Below, piece by piece: positions 1 to 63,133 of a DNA stretch of 64,000 nt; positions within the stretch are counted from its first letter, which is position 1; the number at the start of each line of letters is the position of its first letter. Source of the DNA: Felis catus (taxonomy: Eukaryota); NCBI RefSeq assembly GCF_018350175.1, contig NC_058368.1, forward strand, positions 88,600,001 through 88,664,000, in the 5' to 3' direction. The translations under genes and the position numbers were made by a program. A model generated the notes under the pieces. It was not told the DNA's origin. It searched no databases and was given only the letters and a program-made list of their open reading frames with translations.

Positions 1-41
1 TGACTGTCTGTGCGTCCTTGTCAGTTCTGCCTATCTTTGTC

Positions 42-5030: not shown

Positions 5031-5050
5031 CTGACAAGAAAAGGGGGAAA

Positions 5051-5771
5051 TGTAAGGGTTAAATTGTAATGTAGGGCTAACGCTTAGCTTGAAAAATAAC
5101 AGCTTTGTGTTGACACTTAAGGTTAAAAGATAACAGCCTTGGGGCGCCTAGGTGGCACAGTCGGTTAAGCGTCCGACTTCAGCCAGGTCATGATCTCGCG
5201 GTCCGTGAGTTCGAGCCCCGCGTCGGGCTCTGGGCTGATGGCTCAGAGCCTGGAGCCTGTTTCCGATTCTGTGTCTCCCTCTCTCTATGCCCCTCCCCCG
5301 TTCATGCTCTGTCTCTCTCTGTCCCAAAAATAAATAAACTTGAAAAAAAAAAAAAGATAACAGCCTTGCTTTACTCTTGTAAATTACGCTTCATACTCTT
5401 GTAAATTAGGCTTCACCAATTAAGGAAACAAAAGTTCAAAGAAAAGAGCATCAGAGGCAGGGTCAAAGAGATCCACTGGTTGCAACTTAGAGGCAGAAAG
5501 TCTAAAATAAACACCTCATTAGGCAACTGTTTCTAACTCATCTGGCAACTGTTTCTAACTCATCTGGGAACTGTTTCTTTGTTCTGTTCCCAGGTGATGA
5601 TAAAACGATGTGATCCGCTATAAAAACTCTGTACCTTGGCTGTTCTGGGCCGCACTCTTATCAAGAGTGTTGGTCCCAATCCGTCAGCCTTGCCTCTCAT
5701 TGTAATAAACTTTGTTGTGACTGTCACTGGTGCCCATAGCATTCTGTTTCAGGAGTCATGTGGATGCAACA
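5051..5771 (+). mobile_element. 3' LTR of the ERV, interrupted by a SINE
   Basis: Starts TGTAAGG directly after the PPT and ends GCAACA. Has internal tandem units (tactcttgtaaatta-gcttca x2; ggcaactgtttctaactcatct x2-3), TATAAAA near 5619 and AATAAA near 5704. Confidence 0.88.
5141..5351 (+). mobile_element. Carnivore (feliform) tRNA-derived SINE
   Basis: GGGGCGCCTAGGTGG head, CT-rich segment and A tail; 16-bp TSD aaaagataacagcctt at 5125-5140 and 5352-5367. Confidence 0.95.
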
Positions 5772-7224: not shown

Positions 7225-7437
7225 GTGACCCCAGATGACCCTCGTGAAGCCAAAGATACACCCCAGTAATGCACAGAACATTGAGAAATGATAAATCACT
7301 GTCTTTTTAAGTCCCTAGGTTTGGCGGTACTGAGTGACCCCAGATGACCCTCGTGAAGCCAAAGATACACCCCAGTAATGCACAGAACATTGAGAAATGA
7401 TAAATCACTGTCTTTTTAAGTCCCTAGGTTTGGCGGT
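7225..7437. repeat. Perfect 104-bp tandem duplication with a 5-bp spacer, in a MaLR-like LTR fragment
   Basis: 7225-7328 equals 7334-7437, separated by ACTGA. Confidence 0.93.
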
Positions 7438-8126
7438 GCTTTGTTATGCGTCAAAAGATAACTGATGATGTTCCAGCTCTGTGATTTCAGTTACACTACC
7501 GCTGCCCTCCTCTGGGGGTGAGAGACAGTGCTGAGCTGAGGACTGCCAATGTGGGAGAAACACCTTAGTTGCCCATGACACTATGTACTTCAAGGATAGT
7601 TGGGTACATAACATCAAAACACTGGAAGTCCTTGTGAACTCTAACCTTAAAACAAAATGTATTTTCTGGGCCTGACACTTCTAAAAGTAGTCCAAAGCAA
7701 CAAGACTTCCTCCTAACCTGGGGGGGGGGGGCGGTGGTGGTGTCCCCATGTATCTCTGGTGCTCAGATTTTCATCTCTAATACTGAGAACAGGACTCTTG
7801 GAGGACAATAAATCCCATAACTCAGGGCAGGGGAAAAATCAAGATGGCTCTGGAACATTCTGGTGTTGCTAGAAAATAAGATGCTTTCAAAGGTGTCAGA
7901 GGACAGACTAAAATAGCAAAGGATCAAAATTGTAAACAGACCACCACTGTGGATCTGTGACAACTTCAGCATCTAATAATAATACAGTATAGTTACCACT
8001 TCACAAGTTGAATCTGCAAAGGACCATGAGTTCATTATAATATCAAAACATAAAAGTTAAATTAACACAAAATATATAGAGCCAATAATGAATAAAATAA
8101 AACAGCAGACAAAATCAGTCACTAAT

Positions 8127-10464: not shown

Positions 10465-10563
10465 CACTTTGTGTACAAAGTGGTCATGGATCAAGTCCTC
10501 TATGAAGGGCCAACCCATGGCAATGCAGTTTTCACCTTTGCTGAAGAAGATGGAGCTCATCCC
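10465..10563 (-). pseudogene. ALDH1L1: ALDH1L1 pseudo-exon (catalytic-Cys exon, about exon 19), inverted relative to the other exons
   Basis: 99 bp encode GMSSIFFSKGENCIAMGWPFIEDLIHDHFVHKV, against recalled human [33 protein letters not shown]. GT donor intact; acceptor AG lost (..tctgaat|GGG). Confidence 0.9.
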
Positions 10564-11019
10564 ATTCAGAGAATGGACAAGAATGCTGGCTTACAACCTC
10601 TCCCAAGTCACCAGCCCCCCCCCCCACATCCCATCGGCCCCCGGTACCCCTTCCTATAGGGAAGGGGAGGAATGTGTATGTCCTGACCTTTGATGGGATG
10701 GTGGGCCTGGCCCAGCCAGCTCTGGACATACAGGCTCCACTCATTCCTCAGTCACCTCAAGAGGAGAGATGAGTCCCATCCCTTGGGGACAACTGAGTCC
10801 ACACTGCAGAGAGTGGAGGACAAGAGGGAGTCAGGGAGTGAGCCTGGAGGCCCTTTATGCAGGTGTGCTCTCTGGGGTGATACAGGAGGGGTCAGAGCTC
10901 ATCCTCTTGGGGCTGAATCTGGAGGGTCTGTTAGCTTGGAGCAGGCAGCAGTCCCATGTCTTGGAAGGGACGGGGCGCCAGCTCAGGCCTCAGAGAACTC
11001 CTGGCAGGGGTCCAGAATA

Positions 11020-12660
11020 AGTCTTTATTGATATTCTCACTTTTTCTTACATCATTTTCCTCATTCCCTTTAGTTCTTTGTCCAGGGTTTCCTTTAAATT
11101 CATTATACATCTTTTAGACGGTTGATTTAACATCTTTGACAAATAATTCTAATATTTGGTCTTCCTAGAGGATGATTACTTCCAAATTCTTTTATTTTTT
11201 CTGTAAATCAACTGTATTTGCCTGCTTCTTTGTATGTTTTACTATTTTTTTGTTCAAAACTCAACATCTTGAGTGTTGTGTAATTCCAAAAATGTAATCC
11301 TCTCAGCCCTCAGTGATTGCTAGTTCTTGCTTGTGAAGGGTTGGGTTTATCCATTGTGACTTTTCCAAACTTCTTTTTCTTTCTTTTTCTTTTTTTTTTT
11401 TTTTTTGTGAAGTGTCTACTCCTCATTGTATGCAGTAATTGAAGTTTATGTTCTTTTATCTCTGTGATCAGCCAGTGGCCTAAAAAGGATTTTCTTAAGT
11501 GTCTGAATCCCAAAAGAAGGGGGGAAAGTACTGCCTTATAAATCCCCTGGGAGCTTCTTCAGCCTTTGAGGGTTAAAACTGTGGCTTCCAGCCTTTGTGC
11601 TGGCCCCTCAGTGATCAAAAGGAGCATTGGCACTAAGAACACACAATCTAGATGTAGGGAGGGGAAGGTCCTTACTGCCCACCCTGGCTCCAGAAAGCTG
11701 TACCAGGAACAAGTTCAGCTTCCCCCACTGCCTCCTACCAGAAGTATAAGGATTAACACCCCACAAAATGCTGAAATTTGCTAACATTTACCAGCCTCTT
11801 CATCATATTCTTCCCTGGGTGTTGCAAATGTTTGACTGACTCTAGAGTTCCAGAACATTTGATTCAGACAATTCTGCCAGTTCAATAGCTGTTTAGGTGG
11901 AGGAATGGATCTTTAGAGCTTCCTACTCTACCATTTTCTTTCTGTATGTAGGTTTTTATTTCTCTTGAGTAAATATTTGAGAGTGACATGGGAAGTACAT
12001 GTTTAATTTTTAAGAAACTGCCAAACTTCTCTCCAGCATGGTTTCCAAAGTACCATTTTAAACAATCCCACAAACAGTGTATGAGAGCTCAGTTGCTCTG
12101 TATCTTTACCACTGATACGTATGGTCAGACTTTAATTTTAGATATTCTGGTAAGTGTGTAGACATATCCCATTGTCATTTTAATTTGAATTTCCCTAATA
12201 ACTTGTGGCGTTGAACATATTTTCATCTGCTATTTTTTCATCTGCATTTCTTCTTTGGTGAAGGATCTTTTCAATCTTTTGCCCACTTTTACTTTGATTG
12301 TTTTTTTTTTTCCTTAGTATTGAAAGTTGAGACATCTTTATATATTCTGAATGAAAGTCCTTTATCAGATATTTTATTTGGAAATATTTCCCCCAATCTG
12401 TGCTTTGCCTTTTCATTCTTTTCATTATTATTATTTTTAGAGAGTGAGAGAATGAGAGATTGGGGGAGAGAGGCAGAGGTGGAGAAACAGACAGAGAATC
12501 TTAAGCAGGCTCCATGCTCAGTGCAGAACTCAGTGTGGGGCTCATTGCCACGACCCTGGGATCATGACCTGAGCCTAAATCAATAGTTGGACTCTTAACC
12601 ACTAGAGCCGCTGAGGAGTCCTAACCTTTTCATTCTTTTAACATACTTTTCAGTGACTAT
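11020..12660 (-). mobile_element. Old L1 fragments with an embedded SINE (~12425-12622)
   Basis: The minus-strand ORF MKRMKRQSTDWGKYFQ resembles the L1 ORF2 C-terminus; T-rich L1-like sequence. Confidence 0.7.
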
Positions 12661-13007
12661 TCTTAATATCCTATTGATTATTAGCAACATGTAGATTATC
12701 TCATTTACTTACCAGAAAATAGTAGAGGAGCTATTATTGCCGTTTTGCAGGTGAAGAAACTAAGGCTCAGAGTTTTCCACTTTGCCCAAGGTCACGTATT
12801 AGTAAGTGGTGGAACCATAGCTTGAAACTAGGGCCTTGTGAATCCATGGACTGGGCTCTTAACCTCAGTTCTAGATTAACACTCACAGTTTGTTGAGATG
12901 AAGTTTATTTCTGGTAAATGTTTGGCACCATAACTTCTGCCACTAGAATGATGCAAGTCTGCCAAGCCTCTTTCCATGCTCCTGCTTTTCCATCTTCTTT
13001 TCTCAAG

Positions 13008-13155
13008 ACTGGTTGAGGAAATGAAGGAGATGTGTGATGGGCTGGAATTAGAAAATGAGGATGTTTACATGGCCACCACCTTTGGGGAATTCATCCAACT
13101 ATTAGTGAGGAAGCTACAAGGGGACAACAAAGAGAGTGAGTGCATCATTGACTAT
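13008..13155 (+). pseudogene. ALDH1L1: ALDH1L1 pseudo-exon (148 bp)
   Basis: ag|(R)[49 protein letters not shown]|gtgagt. Confidence 0.93.
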
Positions 13156-13884
13156 GTGAGTCCTGGGACCCTCCACATGGGCTTGGCCCTGCAGACCTCT
13201 CAAACACATTGAGATCTGTGGATATCAATGACACTTGGGGAAAACCTGGGCATCCCAGAAGCCAGGGCACTCAAGAGCCCACCTTCAATGTCCCAAAAGC
13301 TCCCTGGTAACCCTGATAGCCTGAGGCTGCCAGCACAGTTAGGCAAACACAATAGAAGAAATTGTTGTCGATGGGACAAATTCTGACCCCCCAAAGGTAT
13401 GAGAGTAGGATATTAAGAAGTGGAATTTACAGAGTACTTCCCTCCCTCTATGTCCTATAGTGTTTTTTTCCCATTAGTTGCCTCCTCGCTGCTGTGGCTC
13501 TGGCCCCTGCCAGATCAGCCTTCCAGGATTCTAGTTTTGCTAGGGATCTGAAACCCTAGTTCTGGGACCACCACTGCCTCATTTGTCCTTCTAGTCTCAC
13601 TAGACTAGTGATGGCAGGGGCTTCCTGCTGTTATCCATCTCTGGTTTGACTCATAACCTCTCAGTTCTTTCATCACCTGTGCAAACAACTGCATGCATTT
13701 AATTCCTTTTGTTGAAATGTCAAAAGAAAGAGAGAAAGGAAGGGAGGTAGGGAGCTAGATGGGAAGAGAAGGAGAGTCGGAGAGAATGAGGAATTGGGAA
13801 CATTTTCCTAATAAGGGAAACAAGTGATCTTATACTTTCAACTTGTATATATGGAAGTGTGATGGTGTAATTGCAAACTTATTT

Positions 13885-14043
13885 TTAATTTTTTTAATGT
13901 TATATTCAATTTTGAGAGAGACAGAGAGTATGTGTGGAGGGACAAAGAGGCAGGGGCAGAGTATCTGAAGTGGGCTCTGTGTTGACCATGGAGAGCCCAA
14001 TGCAGGGCTCAAACTCATAAATCTTGAGATAACCGAAGCACCC
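13885..14043 (-). mobile_element. Carnivore SINE, degenerate
   Basis: T tail, GA-rich segment and gcagggctcaaactca...gcacccc head on the minus strand. Confidence 0.8.
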
Positions 14044-14746
14044 CTGCAAGCTTGTTTTTAAAAGAAACTCTTGAAAAATCATCTTGAGGTGTCTTGGTAG
14101 GCTATGAGCTGTCATAGGAATTAACTTTGGGATACTTTGTTTGGATCAAAAGCTGATGAAGAAAGTGTAGGTGGCCAGGATGGATACCAGGTTGGCCTTA
14201 GGATTGTGGTCAGATGACTGATGAACAGATTTCAGGAGAAGAATGGTGTTTCAAGGATGCCATTCAATCTGGGATTTCAGGTCTACAGGGAAGTGAGCAA
14301 TGGGGTCGGTGTCATGTCTGGTGACTCACAAGTGTCTGTCTGCCAACTGGCACTTCCTACTTGCAGAGGCCTAGCAACCAGTCTGAGATCACACAGCGGG
14401 TAAGTGGCAGGACAGGGGTTGCAACCTAAGCAGCCTGATCTCAGATTCCATGCTCATCATCGCTTCTTATTGCTCAGCTGCCACCACTGCCCACATAACA
14501 GCTCCTTGGGCTAAGGAGGGCAGCAGGACTGGATTTGGCTGAAGAGACCTGAGAAGGCCAAGGGGCCTTGAGCCCTGGCCCCTTGGCTCTGCTTGTGTGC
14601 GTGCATGTGCGTGCGCACGCGTGTGTATGAGTGGTTATCTATCTGTCTGTGTTTCCTGTGTCTCTCTGTGGGTTCATTATCTGTCACTAATGCACCTTGT
14701 GAAGACTCCACACTGCAGTGAATCCGTGCAAAAATTCCCTTCCCAG

Positions 14747-14864
14747 GTGGAAAGGGCGGTGAACCAGCTGACCATCCAAATGCCCACAGCTCTTCATTGG
14801 GGGTGTGTTTGTGGATGCTGAGGGTGCCAAGACCTATGAGACTGTCAACTCAACAGCTGGAAGT
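14747..14864 (+). pseudogene. ALDH1L1: ALDH1L1 pseudo-exon (118 bp, 2-bp deletion)
   Basis: [13 protein letters not shown] / frameshift / [26 protein letters not shown]|gtgagt. Confidence 0.9.
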
Positions 14865-15298
14865 GTGAGTGCACTTCCTGCACTCCCTCCTGCTCTCCCT
14901 CCACCTTCCTCCTCCAAGGCCTCCTCTCTCATCTACTCCTCCACCTGGTGTCTGGGGATCCTGGCTTAGGGGGCCTCTACTTGCACACAGAATGGTTGCA
15001 GTAAGTCTTGAGTCCTCCCTGCAGGAATGGCCCAGAGGGGAGCTGGATCTGGGAGGCAGGAGGATTCCTAAGGTCTGGAGCCTGCTTCAGAGACTAGGAC
15101 CAGAGCTAACATCCCCCATGGAAGAAATGAAGCCATTCCCTCCCCCTCCACATGTCAACAATAACCTCAGCATGGGTCTTACCTTCTTGAATATGTGACA
15201 CTCCACTGTTGGGAATTCTTCCTTGATTCCTATGTTTGTCAGACTTTCTTGACCTTGACCCTTTTATGTCATGACCTAGTATGCACATATTGTATTCT

Positions 15299-15302
<4 letters not shown>

Positions 15303-15337
<35 letters not shown>
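15303..15337. repeat. (CA)n microsatellite
   Basis: Read directly. Confidence 0.95.
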
Positions 15338-15339
<2 letters not shown>

Positions 15340-16191
15340 GGAACAACACTTACTCCTACAGGTGCATACTTAGTCTCCATTCTGCCCTACCTATAGCATC
15401 CCTGAGGGACTCTGGAAAGCATATAGCACACTCAACTGGGTCAACTGAAGGGAGTATAAAGAAAATAATTGACAAAGGGGTAGACCGGGTGTGGGGACAC
15501 AGACAAGGGATGCAGTGCCCTCAGGCAGAAACATGAGCTATTACTACCTTGAGGGGCCTGTTTGGGGAATCCCAGAAGGAAAGCCATCTGGACAGGTTTG
15601 CCTGGGTGCTGTGCCTTTGGGCAAGGTTGCCTGGGTGCTGGGCCCTTGGGCAGGGAGGGTGTACCATGCCTGTGGTATCCAGCAGGGTCCTGGCCTTGCA
15701 CCTCCCACTTCTCTCTCCTCCTGACTTTCCTTTGGTCAAGCCCAGGTGTCGGTAGGTATAGGAGCCTGCATTGTAGTGCACGTGGGTACTCTTAGACACA
15801 GAGCAAGGATGGGGGACAGGAATGGCCCTGTCACCTTCAACATGTAGACTATTTCACTTAAGAAATAGACTTTCTTCCTAGGACTTACCAAATGAACCAT
15901 CTTCTGCTCTTGGTTTGACAATTTAAGCTAATCCTCAGCCTCAAAGCTGCAGCCTGAGTCTGTTTGCCTTTTTGGGCTCAGCGGGCAAGTGAAAAGAAGG
16001 GTCCTGGAATGGAGAAACGTGAACAAGCCTTTTTGAAGGTCCCTGCCTTTCCTCATTGTGCACACCCTTCCAGGGCCCTCCTGTTCACCTGTTGTCCCCA
16101 CTGAGCCCACCAAGTTGGCCAGGGAGCAGCAACTTGAGGCATCTGTGTACACAGAGTCCAGGGAGGGCTTCGTGGCACTGTTCTACCACGG

Positions 16192-16319
16192 GTCATCTGC
16201 TAGGTGTCCCTGGCCCAGGTCAGCGATATTGACAAGGCAGTGGCTGCCACTAAGGATGCTTTTGAGATTGGATTGTGGGGAAAGATCAGTTCACAGGATT
16301 GAGGCCAGCTCCTGTACAT
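16192..16319 (+). pseudogene. ALDH1L1: ALDH1L1 pseudo-exon (128 bp; acceptor mutated, two stops)
   Basis: cacgg|[40 protein letters not shown]|gtgaga; TAG at 16201 and TGA at 16300. Confidence 0.92.
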
Positions 16320-19300
16320 GTGAGAGCCCCACAACCTCCTGTCAGCTACCCCACCTTTTGTTTAGGTTGGAACTGCATGCTTGGGTTCTGCCAGGAGTAA
16401 GTTGGGGTCTGAGACTCAGAAAAGGCTTCTCAGAGGAAGTGACGTGAGACGCAGAAGGGATTTCACAAGACACAAGTAGCCTTAAGGTAAATAGTCCTCA
16501 GTGGAGGGAACAGTGTGATTAATGATGAGGAGGCACAAAAGTGGAGATGCTAATTACATGGGAGCAGTAAACTGGCAAAGGTAACAGATAGTCCTGGGCA
16601 GTCTCAGACATGTTCACCACTTCCCTGAGTGGACTGGACCAGAGGAGAGATGAGGCCTATTTTATATAGAAGCCAGCGACAGAAGCACGGGGTCTGTTCT
16701 TCCTGGTGGTCCTTGCTCAGATCTCCCTGACTGCTGGAATCTTACATTTTCCTTGTTTTCTAAAACCAGGGAAGAAGGGTCTCTCTCCCCTTAGCTCCAT
16801 CAGAACTATTAAGGAAGGATGTAGAGTTGATCCACTTATGACTATGGTTTGGGAGTGCGGCCTGGAGGAGACATACTATTCCCCTAGAACTAGGTGGTCC
16901 CAGTGGGGGAGGAGCAGTTGCCCCCCCCCCCCAAGGAAGTGGTGTGGTGTTTTCAGAAGGGAGGGTGCTGCGCAGATGAACTAAACAGTGTCAAAAAGTC
17001 TAGTGAACAAGCCAATTTCAGGAACCTGACTTTTATGCTCTGGGTCCTGGGGAAGCTATCAGGCAGAGAGGCTGGTCATGATGTGTTCCAAATGTACTTG
17101 TCATCTGGTGGGAGAGAGGCTCCATCTTGGCCTTGCAGTCAGAATGTCATTTTTTTTTCCTATTCAGAGACCAGAAACACCAGGACAGCCTCCAGCACAG
17201 GAAACCATAGAGAGGGGCCTGTCTATTTTCAAAATGGAATAGAGATGGTACAGGTTGGGGCAGGCAAGGGTGCACCCAGTCTGCTCTAACTCAAGTTAGT
17301 TTCAAGACCCCTTGAAGAGCCTATCAATTTTAGGAAGCCATTGCCTAGTGACCTAGTGCTCCCAGAGTAGGCAAAACTGAAACATCCAAGCCCAGGCTGG
17401 TGATGCTGAGAGGAGCCTTCTGGCCCTGAAGCAGGGACTCCAGAGGTAGATGTTTGCAGACCCAAGAGTGTGTCCCTTGAGCAGTTCTGCTGGCGTCTAG
17501 TGGCATGTGTCATAATAACACCACCAGCAACATGATAGTGAAGGGTTGAGTTCCTGCACAGTTCTAAGTAGAGACATGGACAGCTTTGACAGACATCGCA
17601 AGCCTAGACCTGAGAGCTCCTAGGAACCTGGTCCTGCCTCATGCAACCCTCCCAGTCCCCATGGTGGAGGTTCGCCCATTGCTGGCTCAGGAGGGAGCAG
17701 CCCCTGGTTCAACAAGGAAAATAGGACCACCACGGATACATGTTATAGAATACAGAATACATTATAGGGTTGAGACATTATGCAATTGTGGGAGACACTA
17801 GGAAGAAAGATCCAGAAAAGAGCGTTAGAGAAAGTCACTAGACAGGCCCCAAGAACCACTGAGGGAGAAGATAGAGCCTCTCGGGAACCTAGAGACCAGT
17901 GTCCACAGCTGCCAGAGTGGGGCCACCAAGAGTTGGTGGCGGAGTCTGTAGGAAACTTTCACCTTTTGTTCAGACACTTCCTTAGGTCCACAGACAAGAA
18001 TCTGGTGGTGGCCCAGGCTGCTGGGAGTGAGGCTGAGCCTGTGTGGCACCCCACACTTGCCCTTCCTCATGGCTGTCCTGAGGACCTCTGGGATGAAGGT
18101 GGTTGCTTCACTGCCTTCCCTCCTGGTGCTTTCTGGGGACAGGATGCAGGAGGCAGAGGTACACCTCAACAAAGTTGACAATGAACAATCCCACTCAGTT
18201 CTCCTTCCCGAGCCTCCCAAATGGCATGCTCAGGTGATAGTTACTTCAGGGCTTTATGACATGGCCACATCACATGCAGGTGACATTGTCTGGCAGAATT
18301 AGAGGTATTTGGGGCTGATCGAGGGAAAAGATAGGACTATGAGAAGTAGAAAACAGGCTTCAGGAGGCAACACTCCCATAGTGGGAGACGCTCCAGAGAC
18401 TGTAGTGTGGTGGTCTCTACTCAGAATGGGAAGGGTGTAAAGGAACTTTCGGAGGTTGCGTGATCAGAGAGGGGGTGCTCCCAAGTCCTGGCAATGTTGT
18501 TCAGCATCAGAGCAGGGATCTTTGGATCAGAGGGCTGGGAAGGCAGCAGCTGCAGCTGTAAGTGAATAGTCGGTCTCTCCATTGATAATAGCTGTCAAGT
18601 GGGGGATGCAATGCAAGATGACTTTAAATAGCTAAATTCTGCTTGTTTGGGCTACATTTAAAATAATTGGAGACATAAATGTGTATCCAGCAAGCTTTTA
18701 AGCTGACAGGTCTCACCCTGCAGTCAAGACTTGAACAACTAGAGGCCAATACACAAAGACCAACTTTGGCTTGTTTATAATACAGATTTATACCTGTGAC
18801 ACATCTGTTTTTCTAGTTGATACAACCCTAGTCTTTGAAATGCCACAACATGGCATTTTCGTTATTTGGTCTATAATGCTTCTAAAAAAGTGGCTTACAC
18901 CTTTGCTATTCTTAACTAGAAAGTTACCTGGGTGTGTCACTGTGTCTGAGGTAACCGTGTGGCTATGCCACTAGATTGCTTGTGTCTGTTCCGCCCACAG
19001 TTTCACTCACAAGTCTTATGCTACATACTGACTGTGTGCCCAGTGGGTGTAGGAGGTCCAGTAGGGAGCAGACCAAATCCTGTCCCAGGCCTCAGGGAGA
19101 GGCAAATAGTACTGGAATACTCAACTAAGTGAATATCTGTAACAGTCATGCAAGGTTTGAAGAAAGGTAGAGGATGCTATCAGGACACTGGAGGGATATG
19201 TGATTGGTGTAGAGAGGGCAGGAATTCCGGTTGGCTTCCCAGGGAGTGGGAGTGTGTACTTGGGGTGTTTAGGCCATGCCATGGCTGAATGCAGAGAGGA

Positions 19301-20064
19301 GCTGGTCAGCAGTCTTTCGTCCCAGACTTATCTCTGGGCCAGAGCTCCCCCATGTACAAGTTTGAGAGCCACTCTGGGTCTGTGGCCTCCACCTTCCTCT
19401 GGATACCCTGTACCCTGGGCACTCTGCTCTTTGGGCTCTTTTATATCAAAGAAGGGGGCACAGTCCTAACTCCCAGGCTGCCCACAGCAGCACACCCACC
19501 AGAATCACAGGAGGGCAACTGGATTTCAGAGAGCTCACACTTCAGGAGGGCTGTGTAGATGAACCTTCCCTTGAATCTTCTCCTATCATCCCCCTCTCCC
19601 TCGCCACGGATGACATCCTTGGGGCACATTTCACTGGATCTGCTGGTGCTTGTAGCTGGTCAAGCATGTAGCTGGACATGCTTTCCCCTGGTCACTGCTG
19701 TCCATAGACAGAGAAGGCGGCCTTTTTGGATGGTGACCTCCTTATTACAGAGGCAGAAGGACTGCTTTGCAGAATCATGTGTGTTATTATAAAGTAGTAA
19801 ATGCATCCATGTTTTACAAAGGGATAAAGTAAAAGAGAAGAGAGCAGATATGGACAGAATGGCATCATCCTCATGCCCATCCAGCAAAGTAAACCTTACT
19901 GTCCCATTTCATAGATCAGGAAACTGAGGTCAGCACCTCTGAGTGTGGCAGAGCTGGCTGTACAGGCCAGAGCCCCTTGTTCATTGAAGTAGGGCCCTGA
20001 AAGAATAGGCAAGGCTGGTCCCAACCTGAGCCCATCTCCTTCCCCTCCCACACCCCTTGGCCAG

Positions 20065-20215
20065 GTTGGCGGACCTCATGGAACAGCATCAGGAAGAACT
20101 GGCCACCATCAAGGCTCTGGATGCAGGCACTGCCTTCACACTGGCTCTGAAGACCCATGTGGGCATGTCCATCCAGATCTTCGACTGCTTTGCTGGCTGG
20201 TGTGACAAAATTCAG
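20065..20215 (+). pseudogene. ALDH1L1: ALDH1L1 pseudo-exon (151 bp)
   Basis: ag|[50 protein letters not shown]|gt. Confidence 0.94.
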
Positions 20216-20289
20216 GTGGGGCTGAGGCTCTTGCCCACCAAGTGAGAGCTCACACAGGCAGGCTCCGCTCAGCAGGAAACTCTAGGGCA

Positions 20290-20850
20290 GGGTGTTAGCC
20301 TACACGCTACATAAGAAATGACCCCAGTTTATTGGTTTAAAACAACCATCAGCTCACATTTCTGCAGATGGAAGTCCAGGCAGGCTTGGCTGGGCTCCAT
20401 GCCAGGATTTCACAAGGTCAGTGTCAAGGTGTAGTCAGGCTGGCCTTTATATGGAGCTCTGGGGAAACCCTGCCTGCAGGCCTGTTCAGGTGTTGGCAGA
20501 ACTCAGCTCCTGTTGTTGTAGGACTGAAGGTCCAGGTCCTTGCTGGCTGCTGGCTGAGGCTAATGCAGTCTGGCCTCCCTCTGGTACCCCACTCCCCTTG
20601 CCTTTCTCAGGCTTGGCATCCTTCAGATTCTCTTAAACTGGGGAAAACTCTGCCTTTATGGAGGCTCCCGAGGTCATGCTGGGGTCATTTGCATCATCTC
20701 CCTATCCTAAGGTCAACTGTGCCATTCTGCATCTTTGCAGAAGGGGTAGCTCACCACCTCCTGCATCCCAGCGATCAGGATGTGACTTTGGGAGCCATTT
20801 CCAGAGGTTTGCCCACCAGAGGCAGGGATGGGTCAACCCTTCTCTAGAGA
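20290..20850 (-). mobile_element. MaLR (MLT1-type) LTR
   Basis: Motifs ggtttaaaacaac...ctcacatttctgcagatggaagtcc and a terminal tgcccacca resemble MLT1 in reverse. Confidence 0.6.
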
Positions 20851-21366
20851 TACCCATCACCAACAGGTTCATTGGGGTCTCTGCCAGAAATGGGCTCCAC
20901 GCCTCTTATCCTCTCCATGGGGCTGAGAGGTGCAGGTGTGATGGCAAGCCCACCTTCTGCTCCTCCTTCTGCTGCATCACTGTTGGCTAGAGCTGGCCCA
21001 CCTGGGGCCTCCTGGGCCGGCACAGCCTCCAGAGATAATGTGGCTCCCCACCTCCTCCCTTGTCTGCCCCAGTTTCAAAGCCAGAGGGCTTACCTGTACT
21101 TGGACCAGCTTCTTGTCTGAGGATTCAGCCAGGCTAGGTACCGGAGGCACCTTGCCCCTGATGGCTGCCTGCTCCATCTGTACCCGAAGTCCCCTGTCAT
21201 TCCCAGTCTGGAAGGTTTGGGTCTTCTACCTGTCTTGGTCATGGGGGTTTCAGGATGCAGATAAGATCCTGTTCCTTTCTGAGCCCAAGCACAGTCTGGC
21301 TGCCCAGGGGGAAGGGGGAAGGAAACAATGGAGTCCCCTACCAGTGACTCCCCTTGCTTCTTCCAG

Positions 21367-21436
21367 GGCTCCACCATCCCCATCAACCAGGCCAGAGCAA
21401 GCTGCAACCTACCTTGACCAGGAAGGAGCCTGTTGG
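21367..21436 (+). pseudogene. ALDH1L1: ALDH1L1 pseudo-exon (70 bp, 1-bp deletion)
   Basis: ag|GSTIPINQARASCN / frameshift / TLTRKEPVG|gtgagt. Confidence 0.9.
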
Positions 21437-23059
21437 GTGAGTCACAGTGCAGGGTGAAAACTCGTGACATACTACGCACTTTTCGCGTGATTCATAGTGT
21501 GAGTGCTCATCCCCTTTTTACACATCTATCAAACGCTATTTATTCACCAATTACTACATGCCATCCATTTCAGGTGCGGGATATACAACAATGATAAAAC
21601 TGATGGCAATGCCTGCCCTCAGGGGACTTATATTCTAGCAAATAAAACAGCTTTCACATTTAAAGTACCTGCTCTGTGCCAAGCACTGTTTCAATGACCT
21701 TATAAGTATAATTTTACTAAATCCTCACAATAGCCGTGTACCATCAGTGTCATAGTGGGAAACAGGGGGTACACCTGAAAAATTTTCCCTGCAAAGATTA
21801 TAATAATGAATATGCAGAAAATTAAGAACTACAGGGCACCAAGGAGTAGGGTAAAAATAATAGAGAAATAGACAAAGGATAGGAACTAGTGCTCAACAGG
21901 AGACAAACACCTGTCCAATCAACGTAGAAAGGACTAGGAACTGAGGAAATGATGTAAACCCAGACGTGAGGGGCCGTGCCTCACCATCAGATGGTCCCAA
22001 GGCCTAGGGAGAGAGAAGCCTCCTCACACTGCCTGTGGGAGGTCGGGAGGCAGAGGGTCCACCTTCGTGAAAGGCAACTTGGCAGTGACTGTTCAGCCTC
22101 CAAATGTACCCTGCCACAAGCACAACTATGGTGGCTCACTGGCACAGGTGCTCAAGGAGATGAGCCCAAGAGCACTCAGAGCAGCTGTGCTGGGGCCTTG
22201 ACAGCAAAACCCTGCACAACCCACGCTGAACTCTGTGGCCTCCTAACCAGGGCTTGGCATGTGGCTGTGTGAAGGCGTGGGACAGAGCTATGGGGACCAC
22301 ACGGAACAGCTCCAGGAGAAACTTGTGTGAGGGAAGCACACTGACGAATGCCTTCTAAAATCACCAAATGTGTACCAGAGGTCCAGTGTGGTCAGCACCC
22401 AGCAGGCATTCCCACCTACCCTGTGCCCCTTACAACGTGGGGCCTCTTGGATCCACCACCAGGGACCTCACATCCCTGTGGATGGTGGTCAAGGGCACTC
22501 AGCTTCTTTGGGAATGTGGGCGGGGGGGGGGTGTCAGAAGGAGAATGTGTTCAGATGTCATTGGCATTGACAGAAATGAGTACAGAGGAACACACCAGGT
22601 CCTCAAGGACAGGGCTGCTGGTGAGGGCAGCCCCTGTTGGGAGAGTGGGCTGTGGATATAGGAAAACCCTGTCCTGTAGCCCCCAGAGAAGGGGAAGCCT
22701 GGGAGGGAAGTCGCACTGACTCCAGGGCAGGGGTTCCCAGCCAGCCTGTCCCCCAGAGGACACAATATGTAGACCGTGCCCCAGGACAGGCCCCCACAAC
22801 AAGGAACTCCCCTGCCAAGGTGTCAGAGTGTAGAGTGAGAGCCCTGCATAGCCCATGTGCTTGGAGCCCCTTCCTTGGGCACAGGCCTTGAGAAGGGCTG
22901 GGCAGGGAGACCAGGGCCCACCTGGCTGCCAGTCACAGGAATCTGCATGGCCACTGCTCTTCCAGATGCTTCCCAAGGAGTCTGTCCCCATCAGACTGAG
23001 GAGGACACTAATGCAGAGCCTCCCAGGGAGTTGAGGGACTGGGAAAGTTGTCCCTATAT

Positions 23060-23495
23060 GGGTGGGTTTATGAGTCTGCTAGAGCTGCCATAACAAAGTA
23101 CTGAAACTAAGAGACTCAAGCAGCACACATTTGTTGCCTCAGCATTCTGGGGCTGGAAGTTCCAGATTCAGTTGTCAGAGTGTTGGTTTCTTCTGAGGGG
23201 ATGAGGGAGAATCTGCTCCAGGCGTCTCCCCCAGCTTCTGGTGGCTTACCGGCAATCTTGGGTGTTCCCCGATCTCTGCCCTCATGTTCACTTGGTGTCC
23301 TCCTTGCGCATGTCTGTCTGTTCACATGGCTCTGTTTTTTGAAGGACATCAGTCCTATTGGGTTAGGTACACACCCTATTTCAGTATGACCTCATCTTAC
23401 CTAATTACATCTGGGATGGCCCAATTTCCGAATAAGGATGTTCTGGAGTTAGGATTTCAACTGTGAATTGTGGGGAGTACAGTTCAGCCGTGACA
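23060..23495 (-). mobile_element. MaLR (MLT1-type) LTR
   Basis: ctagagctgccataacaaagtac...ttctggggctggaagt...gagaatctgctccaggc...ctcatcttacctaattacatctg...ttcagccgtgaca. Confidence 0.75.
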
Positions 23496-24543
23496 GTGGG
23501 ACTTCCTGACGTCTTTTCTCCTTTGGAGCCCCCACAACCCTGATGACCTCCCCCTCTTCCCTGGATACACTCACCGTGCTCCCTCCACCTTCTCATCCTG
23601 TTGGGTCTGCTGGGTGTACATGGGGTGGGGAGTGGCTCTCCAAACCCCTGAGTGCACCCTGTTGTTCCCAGATGGTGTGCTGGTCCCCAGATTATCCTGA
23701 CCTCAGCCTTCACACACGCTCTTCCCCTTTCCTGGGTTCAGCTAAGTCCTCTTTAGGGAAACATTCTGTGGTGATGATGATCATGAATATGGTGAAGAAA
23801 ACAAGTTAGGTAGCCTGAGCAACTCTGCGTGGACCGGCTTATTAATTGTCTGACATGGACGAAGACTCTGCCCTGTGTTTTACAGGAGTCAGGGCAAAGC
23901 AGGGCCTCATGCCTGCTGGGACCACATGTGTCATCATTAGGCCCCCCGCTACCATTAGGGGTCTCCCTTTGATGGAGACACTGCTCAGCCAGAGGCTTCC
24001 TCTGGGACAAAGGGGCACACTGATGCTGGGTACCATCTCTTAATGCAAAGCAGACAAGCCTTATTAGGCCTCCCCATGTGACTGATTCCTTCTCTCCATG
24101 GGACTGCACCCTGGCCTCACACCCAAGAGGACCCTCACTGGCTTCCTTCTGGCCCAACCATGTGATCCCAACTCTCTACCATACTCTCTCTGCCCACCTG
24201 GGTGATCCCTGGCCTTCTCCCTGCCCCTGCCTGCTGTCAACTCTTACACTGCCTGGTGTCATGCCCTACTGGACTGTCCTTAGACAGGTCTGACAGTTCT
24301 GATGAGAAACCATGTTCCCTGGCATTGTGCCCTGCCAGGAAGAGGGGTTATTGCCACGCTTGACATACTGCCTCATCAGGGACTGGAAGGGCAGGGGTGA
24401 GCTGTCTCAGGGGGACCTTGGGCACCATATCACGATGCTTGGAGTGGAATGGGTGTCAGGCTTGGGGAGAGGAAGCAGTTGGCAGGTGCAGTCTGGCACC
24501 CAGACTGAGTGGAGAGACGCAGACCCACTTCTTTGCACCACAG

Positions 24544-24644
24544 GGTCTGTCATCATCCCCTGAATCTACCCCCTGATGATGCTTTCCTGGAAGATGGCTG
24601 CCTGCCTGGCTGCTGGGAACACAGTGGTGATCAAGCCTGCCCAG
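24544..24644 (+). pseudogene. ALDH1L1: ALDH1L1 pseudo-exon (101 bp; 5-bp deletion and a stop in the PWNYP motif)
   Basis: VC / deletion / [30 protein letters not shown]|gt; TGA at 24561-24563. Confidence 0.92.
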
Positions 24645-26130
24645 GTGGGTCTGGTGTGTTCCAGGCAGGGCCATTGGAGTTTAGAGGAGGAGACAGGTGC
24701 CCCCTTTGGCCCTTTGCCCGCCCAGGACTGGTATCTCCTCAAGAGAGGAAGGGTACTGCTGACGAGGGCTGGCCTTCCATGGGCTCTGCTCACAGCGGCA
24801 GAGGCAGCACGCAGCAGGGGTCAATGTGGGCTGTAGGCAACGACTGTTCATTCGACCATGGGGTGGCTGAGTCAGGTTAGCCATGTGTGTACCTGCAGCT
24901 ACTTGGTGAGAAGAATTAGGGATTTTCCCACAGACACGAGCCCTCTGGATTTGGGGGAGCAGAAACCCTGTTTGGTATCCCTTGTCCAGGCCCCATGCTC
25001 TGAGAAAGCTTTGGTGCCTTATTTGGCTTCAGAGCCTGAAAGTCCTGGAGGGAGCAAAGGGAGTGGTGGGATTTGTGCACCTGCAACCCTCCCCCCACCC
25101 CCGCCCCGCGCCCAGCCCCTCACACAGAAGCTGCACAGGTAGATGTCAGGGTCACTCAGGCAGGCTAGAAGGATCTGAGCAGGGTCCCCTGAGGATGAGG
25201 ACACCCCCTGCATGAGCCTCAGCTTCTTCACCTGTATACTGAAAGTAACAGCCTGTCCCCTGCCTGCCCCCAGGGGTGTTAGGGACTGAAGGCAAGATGC
25301 TCCATCATGTGGCTCTGGAAAGCGTGCCCAGGAGGTCTCCTGGCTGCTTTGGGGCAACTTGGCTCCAAGAAACTTATAATTTACAACCCAGCAAGAGCGA
25401 CAGCTAGCATTTACAGTATGCACCCTGCAGCAGCCTTTTAGTCCATAACAAATTACATGAAAATTAAAACTTTGCATACGTTTGCTTATTTGAGCATGGC
25501 AACAACCCCCTGAGATGACCCATAACCTCTCGTATTATTGGGGTTTGCTGTGCACAGATCCAGGAATTGTCCCTAGAAGGCCTGGTAGCAGGCCTGTGCC
25601 CTCCCAGGGCCAGCACCCCACAGATTTTGTGGCTCAGCCTAAGACCACGTGGTGGGTGGGGCACAACCCAACCTTTACAAGGAAAATTACCTGGGTTAGA
25701 AGAGGAGCCACTGCTCACAGGGCTGGGAGGACAACGGCCTCCAGCCACGAGGTGGTAATTAGAATCTCTCACCCACCAGGGAGCACTGGGCACTGCCTGG
25801 CACTGAGTTGCTTCCTGGCAGTCCTGGATCGCTCCACTCCCTGAATGAAGAAGGTATGAACATTCAGGGAGGGGCCAAGCCTGGCTAAAAGGCTGGAGCC
25901 TGCCAGGAGAAGTCACTAGAAGACACAGGAGGGAGCAGGCCTTACTCCCCACTTTCCACTGGAGCTGTGGGGAAGCTGCCTGGGGTAGTACCTGCTATGA
26001 TCGGGCTTTCCCTGGAGGGTCCTCTTGCCATGACTGTTTCTCCCTGCTTGCTACCTCTGCTGCTGGGAGAGGAAGGCAGAGCCCCACTTCCCAATCCTTC
26101 CTGACCTGGTCTCCTTCTCTGCCTCCCAAG

Positions 26131-26218
26131 GTGACTCCACTCAAAGACTTGAAGTTTACAGAGTTGACCTTGAAGGCTGACATTCTCAAGGCTGTAGTCA
26201 ACATCCTCCTTGGATCTG
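26131..26218 (+). pseudogene. ALDH1L1: ALDH1L1 pseudo-exon (88 bp)
   Basis: ag|VTPLKDLKFTELTLKADILKAVVNILLGS|gtaaag, against recalled [29 protein letters not shown]. Confidence 0.92.
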
Positions 26219-39325: not shown

Positions 39326-39327
39326 TA

Positions 39328-39395
39328 GGGGCGCCTGGGTGGCTCTGGTTAAGCATCTGACTTCGGCTTCAGGTCATGGTCTCACGGTTCGGGAG
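39328..39395 (+). mobile_element. SINE 5' fragment, abruptly 3'-truncated
   Basis: ggggcgcctgggtggctctggttaagcatctgacttcggcttcaggtcatggtctcacggttcgggag is followed by unrelated sequence, with no CT segment or A tail. Confidence 0.8.
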
Positions 39396-43119: not shown

Positions 43120-43150
<31 letters not shown>

Positions 43151-43250
43151 GTAAACTCAGCAAACAGTCTTCTCAGTGGAGATACAGAGCCAGGAGGGAG
43201 GCATCAGCATAGTGTTCAAAATGAAATGGAAACGTCATTCACCTACATAT
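41000..43250 (+). mobile_element. Old L1 fragments with a MaLR-like LTR (~41540-41860) and a SINE (42294-42500)
   Basis: ORF1-like PNVYVTGISERE...FQEIMADFPNLTKD, ORF2 C-terminal motifs and a canonical SINE. Confidence 0.65.
41985..42290. repeat. AT-rich low-complexity tract with internal palindromes
   Basis: Almost entirely A/T; a perfect 28-bp palindrome at 42019-42046 is repeated immediately at ~42049-42075. Confidence 0.9.
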
Positions 43251-46515: not shown

Positions 46516-46516
<1 letters not shown>

Positions 46517-57784: not shown

Positions 57785-58765
57785 AGAATGGAGCTCTGGA
57801 GGGGAGGGTGCTGTCTGCTCTGTGCATTGGATCCCAGTCAGCTCCTACAGAAGTGCCTGCACCTAGTGGGGCTTCCTGTATGTTTGATGAACGATAGGGC
57901 CCCAATCAGCTTCATCACACATATTGGTGTGGGTCTGGGCCTCCTGCTCATCCTGGGCATCCTTGATTAGTTTGACCCAGGACTCAGACACACAGATAGA
58001 CCCTCACGTCTCCTTTTCAAATGGGAAAAGAGCCCAACTCAACACCTGGTGACAGTGAGGGATGAGGCAGAAACTTGATCATGGGGAAGAGGACAAAGCT
58101 CACCCAGCAGATACACAGCCCGTCCAGCAGACCTTTCCACAGGGCCAGGGTCACTTTCCAAGCAGTGCCCCCACTGAGTACCTGTAGTTATTCTGCTCTG
58201 ATCAGAGGAACAAACTGAGACTCAGGGAGGTTTGGTGACTTTCGTTAGACTCAAAGCTTTAAGGGGCTGAATCACACTAGGCTGTGAAGGGCAGGGCGCT
58301 CACCTCATAAGCAATAGTTCCAGGACCTGTTGGGTGGTAGCAAAAGCTCTGTACGTGCCCAAGAATGTGAAGAAGCAGGTGGGGTCTCTCCACAGGAAGG
58401 CGGGCACCAGGTGCTCCACTCACTGCTTCAGCAGGCCTGCATTGATGGTCCACTCCACACAGTTCTCATTCTCGTTCACGGGTGCGGCCTTTTTACCCCG
58501 AGATAGAACAGAGGAGGGACACAAAGTCAGACACAGCACCATGGACATCAGGAGGGTTGGGGTCCAGAATGCAGACCAAACCCGCCAGCCCTCAGTGACT
58601 TGTCGAAAGAGTGAGACCTGGTGCACACAGTAGGAAAAAGGATCTTGGCATTCACGTGAGAATTTGAGGTGGGGAATGGCTGAACACGTTAGGATCTGAG
58701 GTCAGATTGTTAGATGAGTATGGACAGCACCTCCCTGCATTAACAGCATTGTCTTTGTGATTTCT

Positions 58766-58978
58766 TTTTTTTTTTTTAACGTTTATTTATTTTTGAGACA
58801 GAGAGAGACAGAGCATGAATGGGGGAGGGTCAGAGAGAGGGAGACACAGAATCTGAAACAGGCTCCAGGCTCTGAGCTGTCAGCACAGAACCCGATGCGG
58901 GGCTTGAACTCACGGACCGCGAGATCATGACCTGAGCCGAAGTCGGCGGCTTAACCGACTGAGCCATCCAGGCGCCCC
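58766..58978 (-). mobile_element. Young feliform SINE, present only in arm 1
   Basis: TSD tgtctttgtgatttct at 58750-58765 and 58979-58994; empty site in arm 2 near 62012-62027. Confidence 0.95.
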
Positions 58979-61900
58979 TGTCTTTGTGATTTCTAACACC
59001 ACAGTCCATTCTAGGGATCAGAAGACAGGGACATTACCTGGCAGAGGTTGGATCAGGATAATAGGACATGTAGGATGTTCAGTGCAGCACTGTGACATGG
59101 CAACAGAAGGGAATCATGTAACAGTCCCGCATTTGTGAAGGGCTGAATGGGTGAGGTAAGTGGTCTCATTTCCAGAATGTTGTAAGGTAGTAAGGTCCTT
59201 GCTCCTGATCTGGAGGGCCCTAGGGACGTGTTGCTTGGCAACCAAAGTGCAGAGCAGTAGACATAATACAGTGAGTCCCATGTCCTTTGGGTAAAAATCT
59301 CCCTGCTCATCATGAACATGTGTCAGATGTGGGGAAGGTGTGGAAGGATGGTCAGGCGAACCGGGACACCTGGGAACAGTCATTGAGGAAACATGTACGA
59401 CAATGGCAATATATTCTAAACAGAATGGGACGTGAAATGGTTTCACACCTCTTTTCTGATATTCCTACAAATAAGTGGAGAGTGATGTTGCATCTGGCCA
59501 TGGCAGGGGCTGGGCCACGAGGGCATGTTTGGGGAACACATGGGGTTCCAGGTTCATCTGGGATCAGGAGTCTACGAGAGATACCAGGGGAGTAACTGTG
59601 TGTTTTCTGTGCCCTGGGATTCTTTGCACTGCCTCTGGGCTGTGCGTGTCGTGTTTCCCTGGTACCTTCACTCACCCTGAGCCAGGGGGGGCATCCTGCT
59701 AATGGCATGGGGCTTCCTCCTGTCCTTCAAGGAAGTAGAGCAGGGGCTCTCATCATTCACCTTCTCCTCCATCTCTGACGTGTGGCTCTGTAAAGACAGT
59801 GCCCAGCATGCAGGCAGGAGTCCTCAAAGCCATGTCTGCTTGCTTTCACTTGTCCTCAGACCCGTGTGAATTCATTGCAGATATACACACCGCAGTGTGC
59901 ACACATCTCCCTCAAGGAGGAGAAGCAACATGGTTTGAGGGCCTTGGATTAAACCTGTTATAGGTTAAAGGCACCTCAGAGATCCCTTTTGCCTCCTTCC
60001 CTGCATGACATCTGCATGGCCATGATGGGTCCACCAGGTCGTCCACTGCCATCCAACCTCCTCCAGTCCAGGACAGGAGCACCTCACGTGTTCCCCCTTT
60101 CCCTGAAACTGAAAACGGGGATGGGGGTGCCCAAGGATGGCTCAGAGCTGTGACCTGACCTGACCTGGCCTGGCCTGCTCTAGGCTGCTCTGTATTACCT
60201 TATGTCACCTCCTGGAAAACATCCTGAGGCATCGCCAGTGTGGGTGAAGGACACCTCTCCAACATCCGAATAATCCTGTGCACTGGGGTTTCTGGTATCC
60301 AGAGCCCTGGTAACTGGGAAAACAAGAGAACATCCCAAACTCTCTGTGTCTGTAGACAAGTGAGACTGGTATGGGACCTTACTAGTGCATGGGTGCCGGG
60401 TTACAGGAGTTCCACGTTCTCCTGGGGCCTATTGTGAGCAAAGTGATGTCACTGCCTAGGATCCACCTCCTGAGTCCGCTCCTGGGATAACACCTATGCA
60501 AATAGTCCTCTATTTGCTGACTGCTCACCCCTTTCTCCATGAAATGTCACATCGGTCCACAGTTACACCAACGCACCCCTCTCCACAGCCCCCTGGGAAG
60601 GTCTGGAGGCAGCCAGGGTCCCAGTTTTGAGACGTATCTGGGTTGAGACACAACTCTTCATTCTTACCTCTTTCTGGCTCTAGATAAGTGATTGTGTCTT
60701 TCAGGGATGGTCCCTGTCTCCTCTGCTCAAGGGACATAATTATAGGATGTACTTCCTTAGGATGTCCTCAGGCATACGTGGGATGATACCTGTGAAATTG
60801 GAGGAGTGGTGTCACATGTTGGATATTTATCCAACCACATTTACTTTGACTTCTCACCTCCTTTGGTTCTGCTGCTCCTCTGATCCCAAGTGTGTGTACA
60901 TGTGCGCGTACGTGTGTGCATGCAAGTGTGTGTGTGTACGTGTGTTTATCAGTGCTCATTTTCTGGAGTCCCAGAAGATAACATCCCCACCTAGGGAAGG
61001 ATGGCCAAAAATTTCTTAAGCGCTTAGGTTCTCTAATTTCTAAAGCAATCTTTACACGTGGGATTAGAGTTGTGGCCTAGGTGGTCAGAACACTCTTTTA
61101 CGTAGACTTTGCCAGTAGTGTGCCACAAGCCATTCCCTCCCTTTCCACTGGGTACAATGGAGACAGGGTGGCACTCAGTGGGCTGCCCTAGCCTTGGGTC
61201 CTCCTCACGGAAGAACATGCTGGAATGTCGTCTGTTACGCTCCTCTTCACCCTCACCCCCACACCACCCCCATGTCTGCACAGAGTTACAGTAACACAAC
61301 CTTTTCCCGAGCCCCCTCAGAAAACCTGGGTCAAGTCAAGGACCTCATTTTGAGGACATGGAGTTGGGTTCATGCTTTGTTCTGATTTTTGACCAGTCTG
61401 TGATTCTGAGCAAGGCACTGACCCTGCCAGGGTCTTCACTTTCTCCTCCCCTCAGTGGCTCCTTGAGATTCCCACATCCTGTAAACACATCCTTGTGTAA
61501 TTTCCTTCCTGGAGTGTGGTATGGACTTGGTGTTTGATTTCTGTTCCAAAGAAGATGGAAACCGTATCACGTCCAATTCTGTCTAGAATATTTTGGCATT
61601 GTGTTGTACATGTTTCTTCAATGACTGTTCCCAGGTGTCCTGGTTTGCCTGACCATCCTTCCACACCTTCTCTACATCTGACACATGTTCATGAGGAGCA
61701 GGGTGATTTTTACCCAAAGGACATGGGGCTCATGGTATTATGTCTACTGCTCTGCACTTTGGTTGCCAAGGAACACGTCCCTGGGGCCCCTCCAGATCAG
61801 GAGCAAGGGCCTTACCACCTAGACAACGTTCTGGAAATGAGACAAGGTACCTGACCCATTCAGCCCTTCACAAATGTGGGACTTTGACATGATTCCCTTC

Positions 61901-62279
61901 TGTTGCCATGTCACAGTGCTGCACTGAACATACTACATGTCCTACTACCCTGATGTAACCTCTGCCAGGAAATATCCCTGTCTTCTGGTCCCTAGAATGG
62001 ACTGTGGTGTTAGAAATCACAAAGACAATGCTGTTAATGCAGGGAGGTCTGTCCACACTCATCTAACAATCTGACCTCAGATCCTAACGTGTTCAGCCAT
62101 TCCCCACCTCAAATTCTCACGTGAATGCCAAGATCCTTTTTCCTACTGTGGGCACCCAGGTCTCACTCTTTCGACAAGTCACCGAAGGCTGGTGAGTTTG
62201 GTCTGCATTCTGGACCCCAACCCTCCCGATGTCCATGGTGCTGTGTCTGACTTTGTGTCCCTCCTCTGTTCTATCTCGG

Positions 62280-63133
62280 GGTAAAAAGGCCGCACCCGTG
62301 AACGAGAATGAGAACTGTGTGGAGTGGACCATCAATGCAGGCCTGCTGAAGCAGTGAGTGGAGCACCTGGTGCCCGCCTTCCTGTGGAGAGACCCCACCT
62401 GCTTCTTCACATTCTTGGGCACGTACAGAGCTTTTGCTACCACCCAACAGGTCCTGGAACTATTGCTTATGAGGTGAGCGCCCTGCCCTTCACAGCCTAG
62501 TGTGATTCAGCCCCTTAAAGCTTTGAGTCTAACGAAAGTCACCAAACCTCCCTGAGTCTCAGTTTGTTCCTCTGATCAGAGCAGAATAACTACAGGTACT
62601 CAGTGGGGGCACTGCTTGGAAAGTGACCCTGGCCCTGTGGAAAGGTCTGCTGGACGGGCTGTGTATCTGCTGGGTGAGCTTTGTCCTCTTCCCCATGATC
62701 AAGTTTCTGCCTCATCCCTCACTGTCACCAGGTGTTGAGTTGGGCTCTTTTCCCATTTGAAAAGGAGACGTGAGGGTCTATCTGTGTGTCTGAGTCCTGG
62801 GTCAAACTAATCAAGGATGCCCAGGATGAGCAGGAGGCCCAGACCCACACCAATATGTGTGATGAAGCTGATTGGGGCCCTATCGTTCATCAAACATACA
62901 GGAAGCCCCACTAGGTGCAGGCACTTCTGTAGGAGCTGACTGGGATCCAATGCACAGAGCAGACAGCACCCTCCTTTCCAGAGCTCCATTCTAGTCAGCA
63001 TTAAGTGACCCTGGATATGACAAGAGATAGTATCCACAGGACACCTGATATGATGCCCTTCTGGCCTCCTCCAAATATGGCTGCTTCCTTCCTGAGACTG
63101 AGGAGATGGCGGACCCCGGGAGCAGGAGAAAAT
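62280..63133 (+). pseudogene. RALGDS-like copy B (partial; lacks exons 1-2 and continues past the window end)
   Basis: Exon 62280-62473 is identical to copy A, with the same CGG acceptor and TGA at 62355. Exon 63075-63133 has an AA acceptor and a 1-bp deletion. Confidence 0.88.

What the first reader, a model, noticed from the sequence alone, without database searches (positions are those of the whole stretch)
10465..26218. ALDH1L1 is present only as a heavily disabled intron-containing remnant: possible lineage-specific loss of cytosolic 10-formyl-THF dehydrogenase
Seen: eight exons with appropriate splice phases carry three frameshifts (2, 1 and 5 bp), three nonsense codons (16201, 16300, 24561), two dead acceptors and loss of the conserved PWN motif. 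Established: ALDH1L1 controls the cytosolic one-carbon/folate pool and is a widely used astrocyte marker. Inference: this many lesions imply an old inactivation. If this is the only copy, it is a unitary metabolic gene loss in a carnivore; otherwise it is a dead segmental duplicate.
Basis: partly seen in the sequence, partly recalled or inferred. Interest (0 to 1): 0.75.

Follow-up and report, generated by a model that had tools for sequence, protein, structure and literature searches.

The report
Dead partial ALDH1L1 duplicate in cats
The window holds a broken, partly inverted third of the folate-enzyme gene ALDH1L1, likely an ancient spare copy in a cat-family genome rather than a loss of the gene, so it is ordinary.

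Summary
The exon at 10465-10563 lies on the minus strand, upstream of the other seven. And only residues 359-630 and 695-727 (about 305 of 902) are present, with no KLF15 or SLC41-like neighbour.

The copy groups with felid ALDH1L1 (97/90), and five felid genera have full- or near-full-length ALDH1L1 models. It has decayed far too long to be one cat lineage's own lost gene: about 7% replacement-site divergence, against about 1% on the whole lynx branch. Related damaged copies occur in Prionailurus and Lynx. The Prionailurus iriomotensis copy shares the 2-base frameshift, and that species also has a model with that exon intact, apparently beside KLF15.

Verdict: an old, rearranged, unprocessed duplicated pseudogene fragment from the felid stem, not a unitary gene loss. 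The window's own genome was not available, so its intact copy is inferred, not seen.

The parts
10465..10563 (-). ALDH1L1 exon for residues 695-727 (holds the catalytic Cys707 codon), inverted and upstream of the rest; acceptor AT instead of AG
13008..13155 (+). exon for residues 359-408 (end of the carrier domain); no lesion; carries V364M, L367M, R396Q, which are shared with the other duplicate copies
14747..14864 (+). exon for residues 409-448; 2-base deletion at H422, shared with Prionailurus iriomotensis model GAB5585071.1
16192..16319 (+). exon for residues 449-491; acceptor GG; stops at 16201 (TAG) and 16300 (TGA)
20065..20215 (+). exon for residues 491-541; open, 7 replacements; Pfam Aldedh match
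21367..21436 (+). exon for residues 542-565; 1-base deletion near 21409
24544..24644 (+). exon for residues 565-600; 5-base deletion, TGA at 24561, PWN motif destroyed
26131..26218 (+). exon for residues 601-630; last ALDH1L1 piece found; L1-like sequence (read by eye) follows from about 26400
57785..62992 (.). context: inverted repeat with 837-nt arms, 99% complementary; the right arm holds a RasGEF_N (RALGDS-like) exon at about 62298-62471 with an in-frame TGA (read by eye), mirrored in the left arm; a second duplicated gene fragment in the same block

Best explanation
This is a dead, rearranged internal fragment of ALDH1L1 (residues 359-630 plus an inverted exon for 695-727), likely copied as genomic DNA from the working gene before living cats diversified, with the working gene likely still present at its usual place next to KLF15. 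Steps: (1) an intron-containing piece was duplicated after the cat and dog lines split (inferred from felid-type residues N399, I715, H722 and the tree); (2) it was probably non-functional from the start, since no sequence for the folate-binding domain (aa 1-310) or for residues 631-694 and 728-902 is found in the window (absence from the window shown; absence from the copy as a whole inferred); (3) it gained V364M, L367M, R396Q and the 2-base deletion, then was copied again, giving several sister types (inferred from shared changes); (4) an inversion with deletions put the 695-727 exon backwards in front (structure shown, order of events unknown); (5) it decayed neutrally (pattern shown). It is predicted to make no enzyme.
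For: Partial and rearranged. Of 89 tiles, those wholly within residues 1-358, 631-694 and 728-902 scored at most 23.1 bits against a control maximum of 22.3; one tile (t81) was just above the control, at 59470-59544, in no exon-like setting. Felid origin: window plus 5 felids at 97/90 in a 22-row tree. Parent retained: P0002 Leopardus 902 aa, P0123 Panthera 902 aa, P0006 Prionailurus, P0007 Lynx, P0008 Puma, each 1-2 differences from P0002 over the compared codons. Too old for a terminal-branch loss: 49 of 297 codons changed (cat vs dog 11 of 297; Fisher p 2e-7), at least 51 base changes over about 697 replacement sites = 7.3%, or about 5.5% without the 13 possible CpG changes. The whole lynx branch since the cat-lynx split is about 1.0%: (9.69 M + 0.71 M) / 1.05 G sites (PMC5155386, passage). 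Neutral pattern: 37 of 49 changes fall on columns invariant in 14 mammals, where 241 of 297 columns are invariant (p 0.20, no avoidance). Sister copies: P0090 (P. iriomotensis, 6,004-bp contig) reads through the frameshift site in one frame as the window does; that species also has P0003 with the intact exon on a 165.7-Mb contig, accession GAB5568356.1, next in number to KLF15 GAB5568355.1. P0140 (Lynx pardinus) is the same type as P0090. The window keeps R393 where the Panthera, Lynx, Puma and Prionailurus intact proteins have K. No KLF15 or SLC41-like match in the window.
Against: No whole genome is held for this window and no read-level comparison was obtained, so an intact copy in this very species is inferred. 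No protein named Felis appeared in the listings (15 of 267 cluster members shown; 120 of 1880 hits shown). The tree does not resolve whether the copy is sister to crown felids or inside them (felids alone 57/0). Leopardus also has R393, which weakens that marker. P0003 is a 762-aa model that skips residues 491-600 and 631-660, so it is not itself proof of a whole gene. Adjacency to KLF15 rests on consecutive accession numbers and similar contig lengths. Only 13 kb lies upstream of the residue-359 exon, so N-terminal exons outside the window are not excluded.
Confidence: 0.93

Rival explanations
1. Unitary loss: this is the species' only ALDH1L1, destroyed in place by an inversion, deletions and point lesions.
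For: An inversion of the middle exons inside a minus-strand gene would give the opposite orientations seen. The species' genome could not be searched. No Felis-named protein was seen in the partial listings.
Against: 5.5-7.3% neutral decay cannot fit a terminal felid branch of about 1% (tiger-cat split 10.8 Mya, PMC3778509 passage). The same frameshift occurs in a Prionailurus genome that also has the intact exon. An in-place inversion would leave the flanking exons nearby, and none was found in 10 kb on one side or 38 kb on the other. No syntenic neighbours.
Confidence: 0.03
2. The window comes from a non-felid feliform that lost the gene long ago, so the long branch is a species branch.
For: The species was not identified, and no hyena, mongoose or civet ALDH1L1 was in my comparison set. 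The best sequencing runs hold only 0.80-0.82 of the words.
Against: Sister copies with the same three derived residues are in Prionailurus and Lynx, and the frameshift is in Prionailurus. The young SINEs look felid-type (recalled consensus, read by eye). Earlier scan notes call this genome a cat (leads only).
Confidence: 0.02
3. The opposite orientation of the 695-727 exon is an assembly error, and the fragment is a colinear duplicate.
For: The junction was not checked with reads. The region is rich in duplications, with a 99% inverted repeat nearby.
Against: These do not test the junction itself. This rival would not change the verdict of a dead duplicate.
Confidence: 0.07

Closest known systems
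Mammalian ALDH1L1, cytosolic 10-formyl-THF dehydrogenase (PDB 7RLT, 7RLU, 2CQ8; PMC8748788, passages read)
   Same: Exon sequence (83.5% of 297 codons match the Leopardus protein), intron positions and phases, and the Cys707 codon.
   Different: About a third of the coding sequence. No N-terminal folate-binding domain (aa 1-310) in the window, one exon inverted, three frameshifts, three stops, two dead acceptors.
Duplicated (unprocessed) pseudogene fragments in mosaic segmental duplications (general class, recalled)
   Same: Introns kept, partial gene, rearranged, neutral decay, several sister copies, an unrelated duplicated gene fragment (RasGEF_N exon pair) nearby.
   Different: This particular felid family was not found described in my searches.
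Database models GAB5585071.1 (Prionailurus iriomotensis, 104 aa) and VFV37096.1 (Lynx pardinus, 67 aa, partial)
   Same: Share M364, M367, Q396; the first also shares the 2-base frameshift.
   Different: They carry E385, T402, K403 and I/V399, which the window lacks, so they appear to be another paralog. They are annotated as proteins under ALDH names, not as pseudogenes.

Membership tests
ALDH1L1 (not ALDH1L2) derivative | closest to cytosolic 10-formyl-THF dehydrogenase | tested here: met
   top hits are cytosolic FDH, 92% to the felid protein for the 359-408 exon; ALDH1L2 was not put in the tree
Duplicated (unprocessed) pseudogene | introns retained at parent positions | tested here: met
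   all 8 donors GT, 6 of 8 acceptors AG, exon lengths as expected apart from the three deletions
Duplicated (unprocessed) pseudogene | disabling lesions and neutral decay | tested here: met
Duplicated (unprocessed) pseudogene | functional parent coexists in the lineage | tested here: met
   full- or near-full-length models in five felid genera; intact and frameshifted versions of the 409-448 exon both in P. iriomotensis
Duplicated (unprocessed) pseudogene | functional parent in this very genome | not testable with these tools
   no genome held; no read-level result
Unitary pseudogene (gene loss) | lies at the orthologous locus (KLF15, SLC41A3) | tested here: not met
   no match to KLF15 P0122 or to the non-ALDH part of fused model P0093; limited to the window
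Unitary pseudogene (gene loss) | decay fits the time since the split from relatives that keep the gene | tested here: not met
   5.5-7.3% against about 1% for the lynx branch
Unitary pseudogene (gene loss) | no functional copy anywhere in the genome | not testable with these tools
Processed pseudogene | introns absent | tested here: not met
   seven plus-strand exons spread over 13 kb

The most novel reading that the evidence does not exclude
This species really has no working ALDH1L1: the first mammal found without cytosolic 10-formyl-THF dehydrogenase, a natural knockout for folate and glycine metabolism in an obligate carnivore. The evidence makes this unlikely but does not formally exclude it, because the genome could not be searched; even then the window's copy would more likely be an old paralog than the lost gene itself.
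Probability: 0.03. Interest if true: 0.65.

Novelty: new member of a known kind. Interest (0 to 1): 0.1.

Why it matters
It matters little for biology: a dead partial duplicate is common. It has small practical value. These felid copies are annotated as ALDH proteins in at least two assemblies (GAB5585071.1, VFV37096.1). They could draw mis-mapped reads, false variant calls or false gene-loss calls for ALDH1L1 in cats. The shared lesions could also help date a felid-stem duplication block.

Tried and rejected
Whole-genome search: no genome held. Read-level comparison of same-label DNA and RNA runs: no result obtained, so same-species intactness, expression and the inversion junction stay open.

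RNA runs X15-X18 hold 0.40-0.71 of a mostly intronic 10-kb stretch. The small shares (X19, X20) are not used.

Metagenome scan for mammalian genomic ALDH1L1, to map the breakpoints: 76 loci, best segment at most 84% identical; the first 40 blastn rows printed were exon-only matches. Nothing useful for breakpoints.

Pfam scan of 74 of the 96 stop-to-stop frames listed for 39300-51400 and 55080-64000 (22 left out, many overlapping SINEs or other repeats): only an L1 reverse transcriptase matched.

Literature: 'ALDH1L1 + pseudogene' (89 papers, 30 listed, none on this); 'ALDH1L1 + gene loss + carnivor' (0); 'ALDH1L1 + feline' (18); 'ALDH1L1 + Felis catus' (2); all seen as listings only. ALDH1L1 does not occur in the held supplements of the cheetah, lynx and tiger genome papers (only the files held as text were searched). 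Searches gave nothing on this block. Paywalled felid assembly papers were not searchable.

Mosaic ENA peptides (P0039, P0138, P0215) could show gene conversion but may be assembly chimeras, so I did not count them. Processed-pseudogene origin rejected because introns are present.

Full report
Observation. The 50-codon frame at 13006-13155 found cytosolic 10-formyl-THF dehydrogenases, best the 902-aa Leopardus geoffroyi protein P0002 at 92%, and the rat and human structures. These are -2 at H422, TAG 16201, TGA 16300, -1 near 21409, -5 at G568-I569, TGA 24561 with N574I (PWN lost), and acceptors GG (16190-16191) and AT (before the 695-727 exon). All eight donors are GT.

The 695-727 exon is on the minus strand at 10465-10563, upstream of the seven plus-strand exons (confirmed by blastn orientation). 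Only residues 359-630 and 695-727 are present, about 305 of 902. A scan with 89 overlapping 30-residue tiles found nothing convincing for 1-358, 631-694 or 728-902: best 23.1 bits against a reversed-window maximum of 22.3. The folate-binding domain is aa 1-310 and Cys707 is the catalytic nucleophile (PMC8748788, passages), so the piece in the window cannot encode the enzyme even before the lesions are counted. KLF15 (P0122) and the non-ALDH part of a fused deer model that carries PF01769 (P0093) do not match the window. The only other gene pieces found were a RasGEF_N exon with a stop (stop read by eye), duplicated in a 99% inverted repeat, and an L1 reverse transcriptase.

Whose copy. At sites where felids differ from most other mammals, the window has the felid state (N399, I715, H722). 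A 22-row, 297-column tree puts it with the five felids at 97/90, on a branch of about 0.2 against 0-0.003 for the intact felid proteins. Whether it is sister to them or nested among them is unresolved (57/0). Full- or near-full-length models exist for Leopardus, Panthera, Prionailurus, Lynx and Puma and differ from P0002 at 1-2 compared codons. No Felis-named protein appeared, but only 15 of 267 members of the main cluster were shown.

Age. The window differs from P0002 at 49 of 297 codons; dog differs at 11. Of the 49 changes, 37 hit columns invariant in 14 mammals, as expected if selection is absent (241 of 297 columns invariant; p 0.20). At least 51 base changes over about 697 replacement sites give 7.3%, or about 5.5% without 13 possible CpG changes. 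The lynx branch since the cat-lynx split carries about 1.0% substitutions (PMC5155386, methods passage), and tiger and cat split about 10.8 Mya (PMC3778509, passage). Decay therefore likely began well before crown felids radiated, when the ancestor must still have had a working gene, since five living genera retain one. That makes the window's copy a paralog. This is inference from a rough protein-based clock; no parent DNA was available.

Sister copies. P0090 (Prionailurus iriomotensis, 6,004-bp contig) shares M364, M367 and Q396. It reads through the 409-448 exon in the same single shifted frame as the window, so it carries the same net frameshift. The same species has P0003, with that exon intact, on a 165.7-Mb contig, with the accession next to a KLF15 accession. 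P0003 is a 762-aa model that skips other exons, and adjacency is inferred from the numbering. P0140 (Lynx pardinus) is the same type as P0090. Unnamed ENA peptides add an exact match to the window (P0212, 78 of 78), at least two further types (P0136, P0137 and P0139; P0101) and intact-type exons (P0214, P0215). Their species are unknown and some may be chimeric. All duplicate types share M367, and all but P0039 share Q396, which points to one duplication followed by further copying.

Position. Earlier AI notes place DLEU7, LMO7 and an olfactory-receptor cluster 67.9, 38.4 and 1.9 Mb before this window on the same piece. From recalled cat cytogenetics that is chromosome A1, whereas 165-170-Mb contigs with KLF15 fit A2. 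This is a lead, not tested.

Mechanism and verdict. Most likely: genomic duplication of a mid-gene segment on the felid stem, non-functional from the start, then re-duplication, inversion with deletion, and neutral decay (0.93). Unitary loss is at about 0.03 and is not formally excluded, because neither the genome nor reads could be examined. I found no description of this copy in ten literature searches or in three felid genome papers' held supplements. It is a new member of a common kind; interest is low.

Noticed in passing
window about 56535-59400 and 61600-64000: Large inverted duplication, 89-99% complementary in pieces, with an 837-nt core at 99% and 3.5 kb between the core arms; each arm holds a RasGEF_N (RALGDS-like) exon with an in-frame TGA. 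The higher identity of the core may reflect gene conversion between the arms. It runs off the window's end.
   Followed up: partly
window 51744-55094, minus strand: Young 5'-truncated L1 with a 1116-codon open frame (RVT_1, E 8.8e-49).
   Followed up: partly
window about 1-5770: Decayed endogenous-retrovirus-like sequence (gag/pol/env-like and LTR-like parts, with a SINE inserted), read by eye.
   Followed up: no
window about 14368-14400: Short cryptic exon with AG/GT sites (RPSNQSEITQR) that the P. iriomotensis model GAB5585071.1 splices in; the sequence looks MIR-derived (recalled).
   Followed up: partly
window 7225-7440: 107-nt tandem duplication, 99% identical.
   Followed up: no
proteins P0039, P0138, P0215: Peptides that mix intact-type and duplicate-type residues: gene conversion between paralogs or assembly chimeras.
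   Followed up: partly
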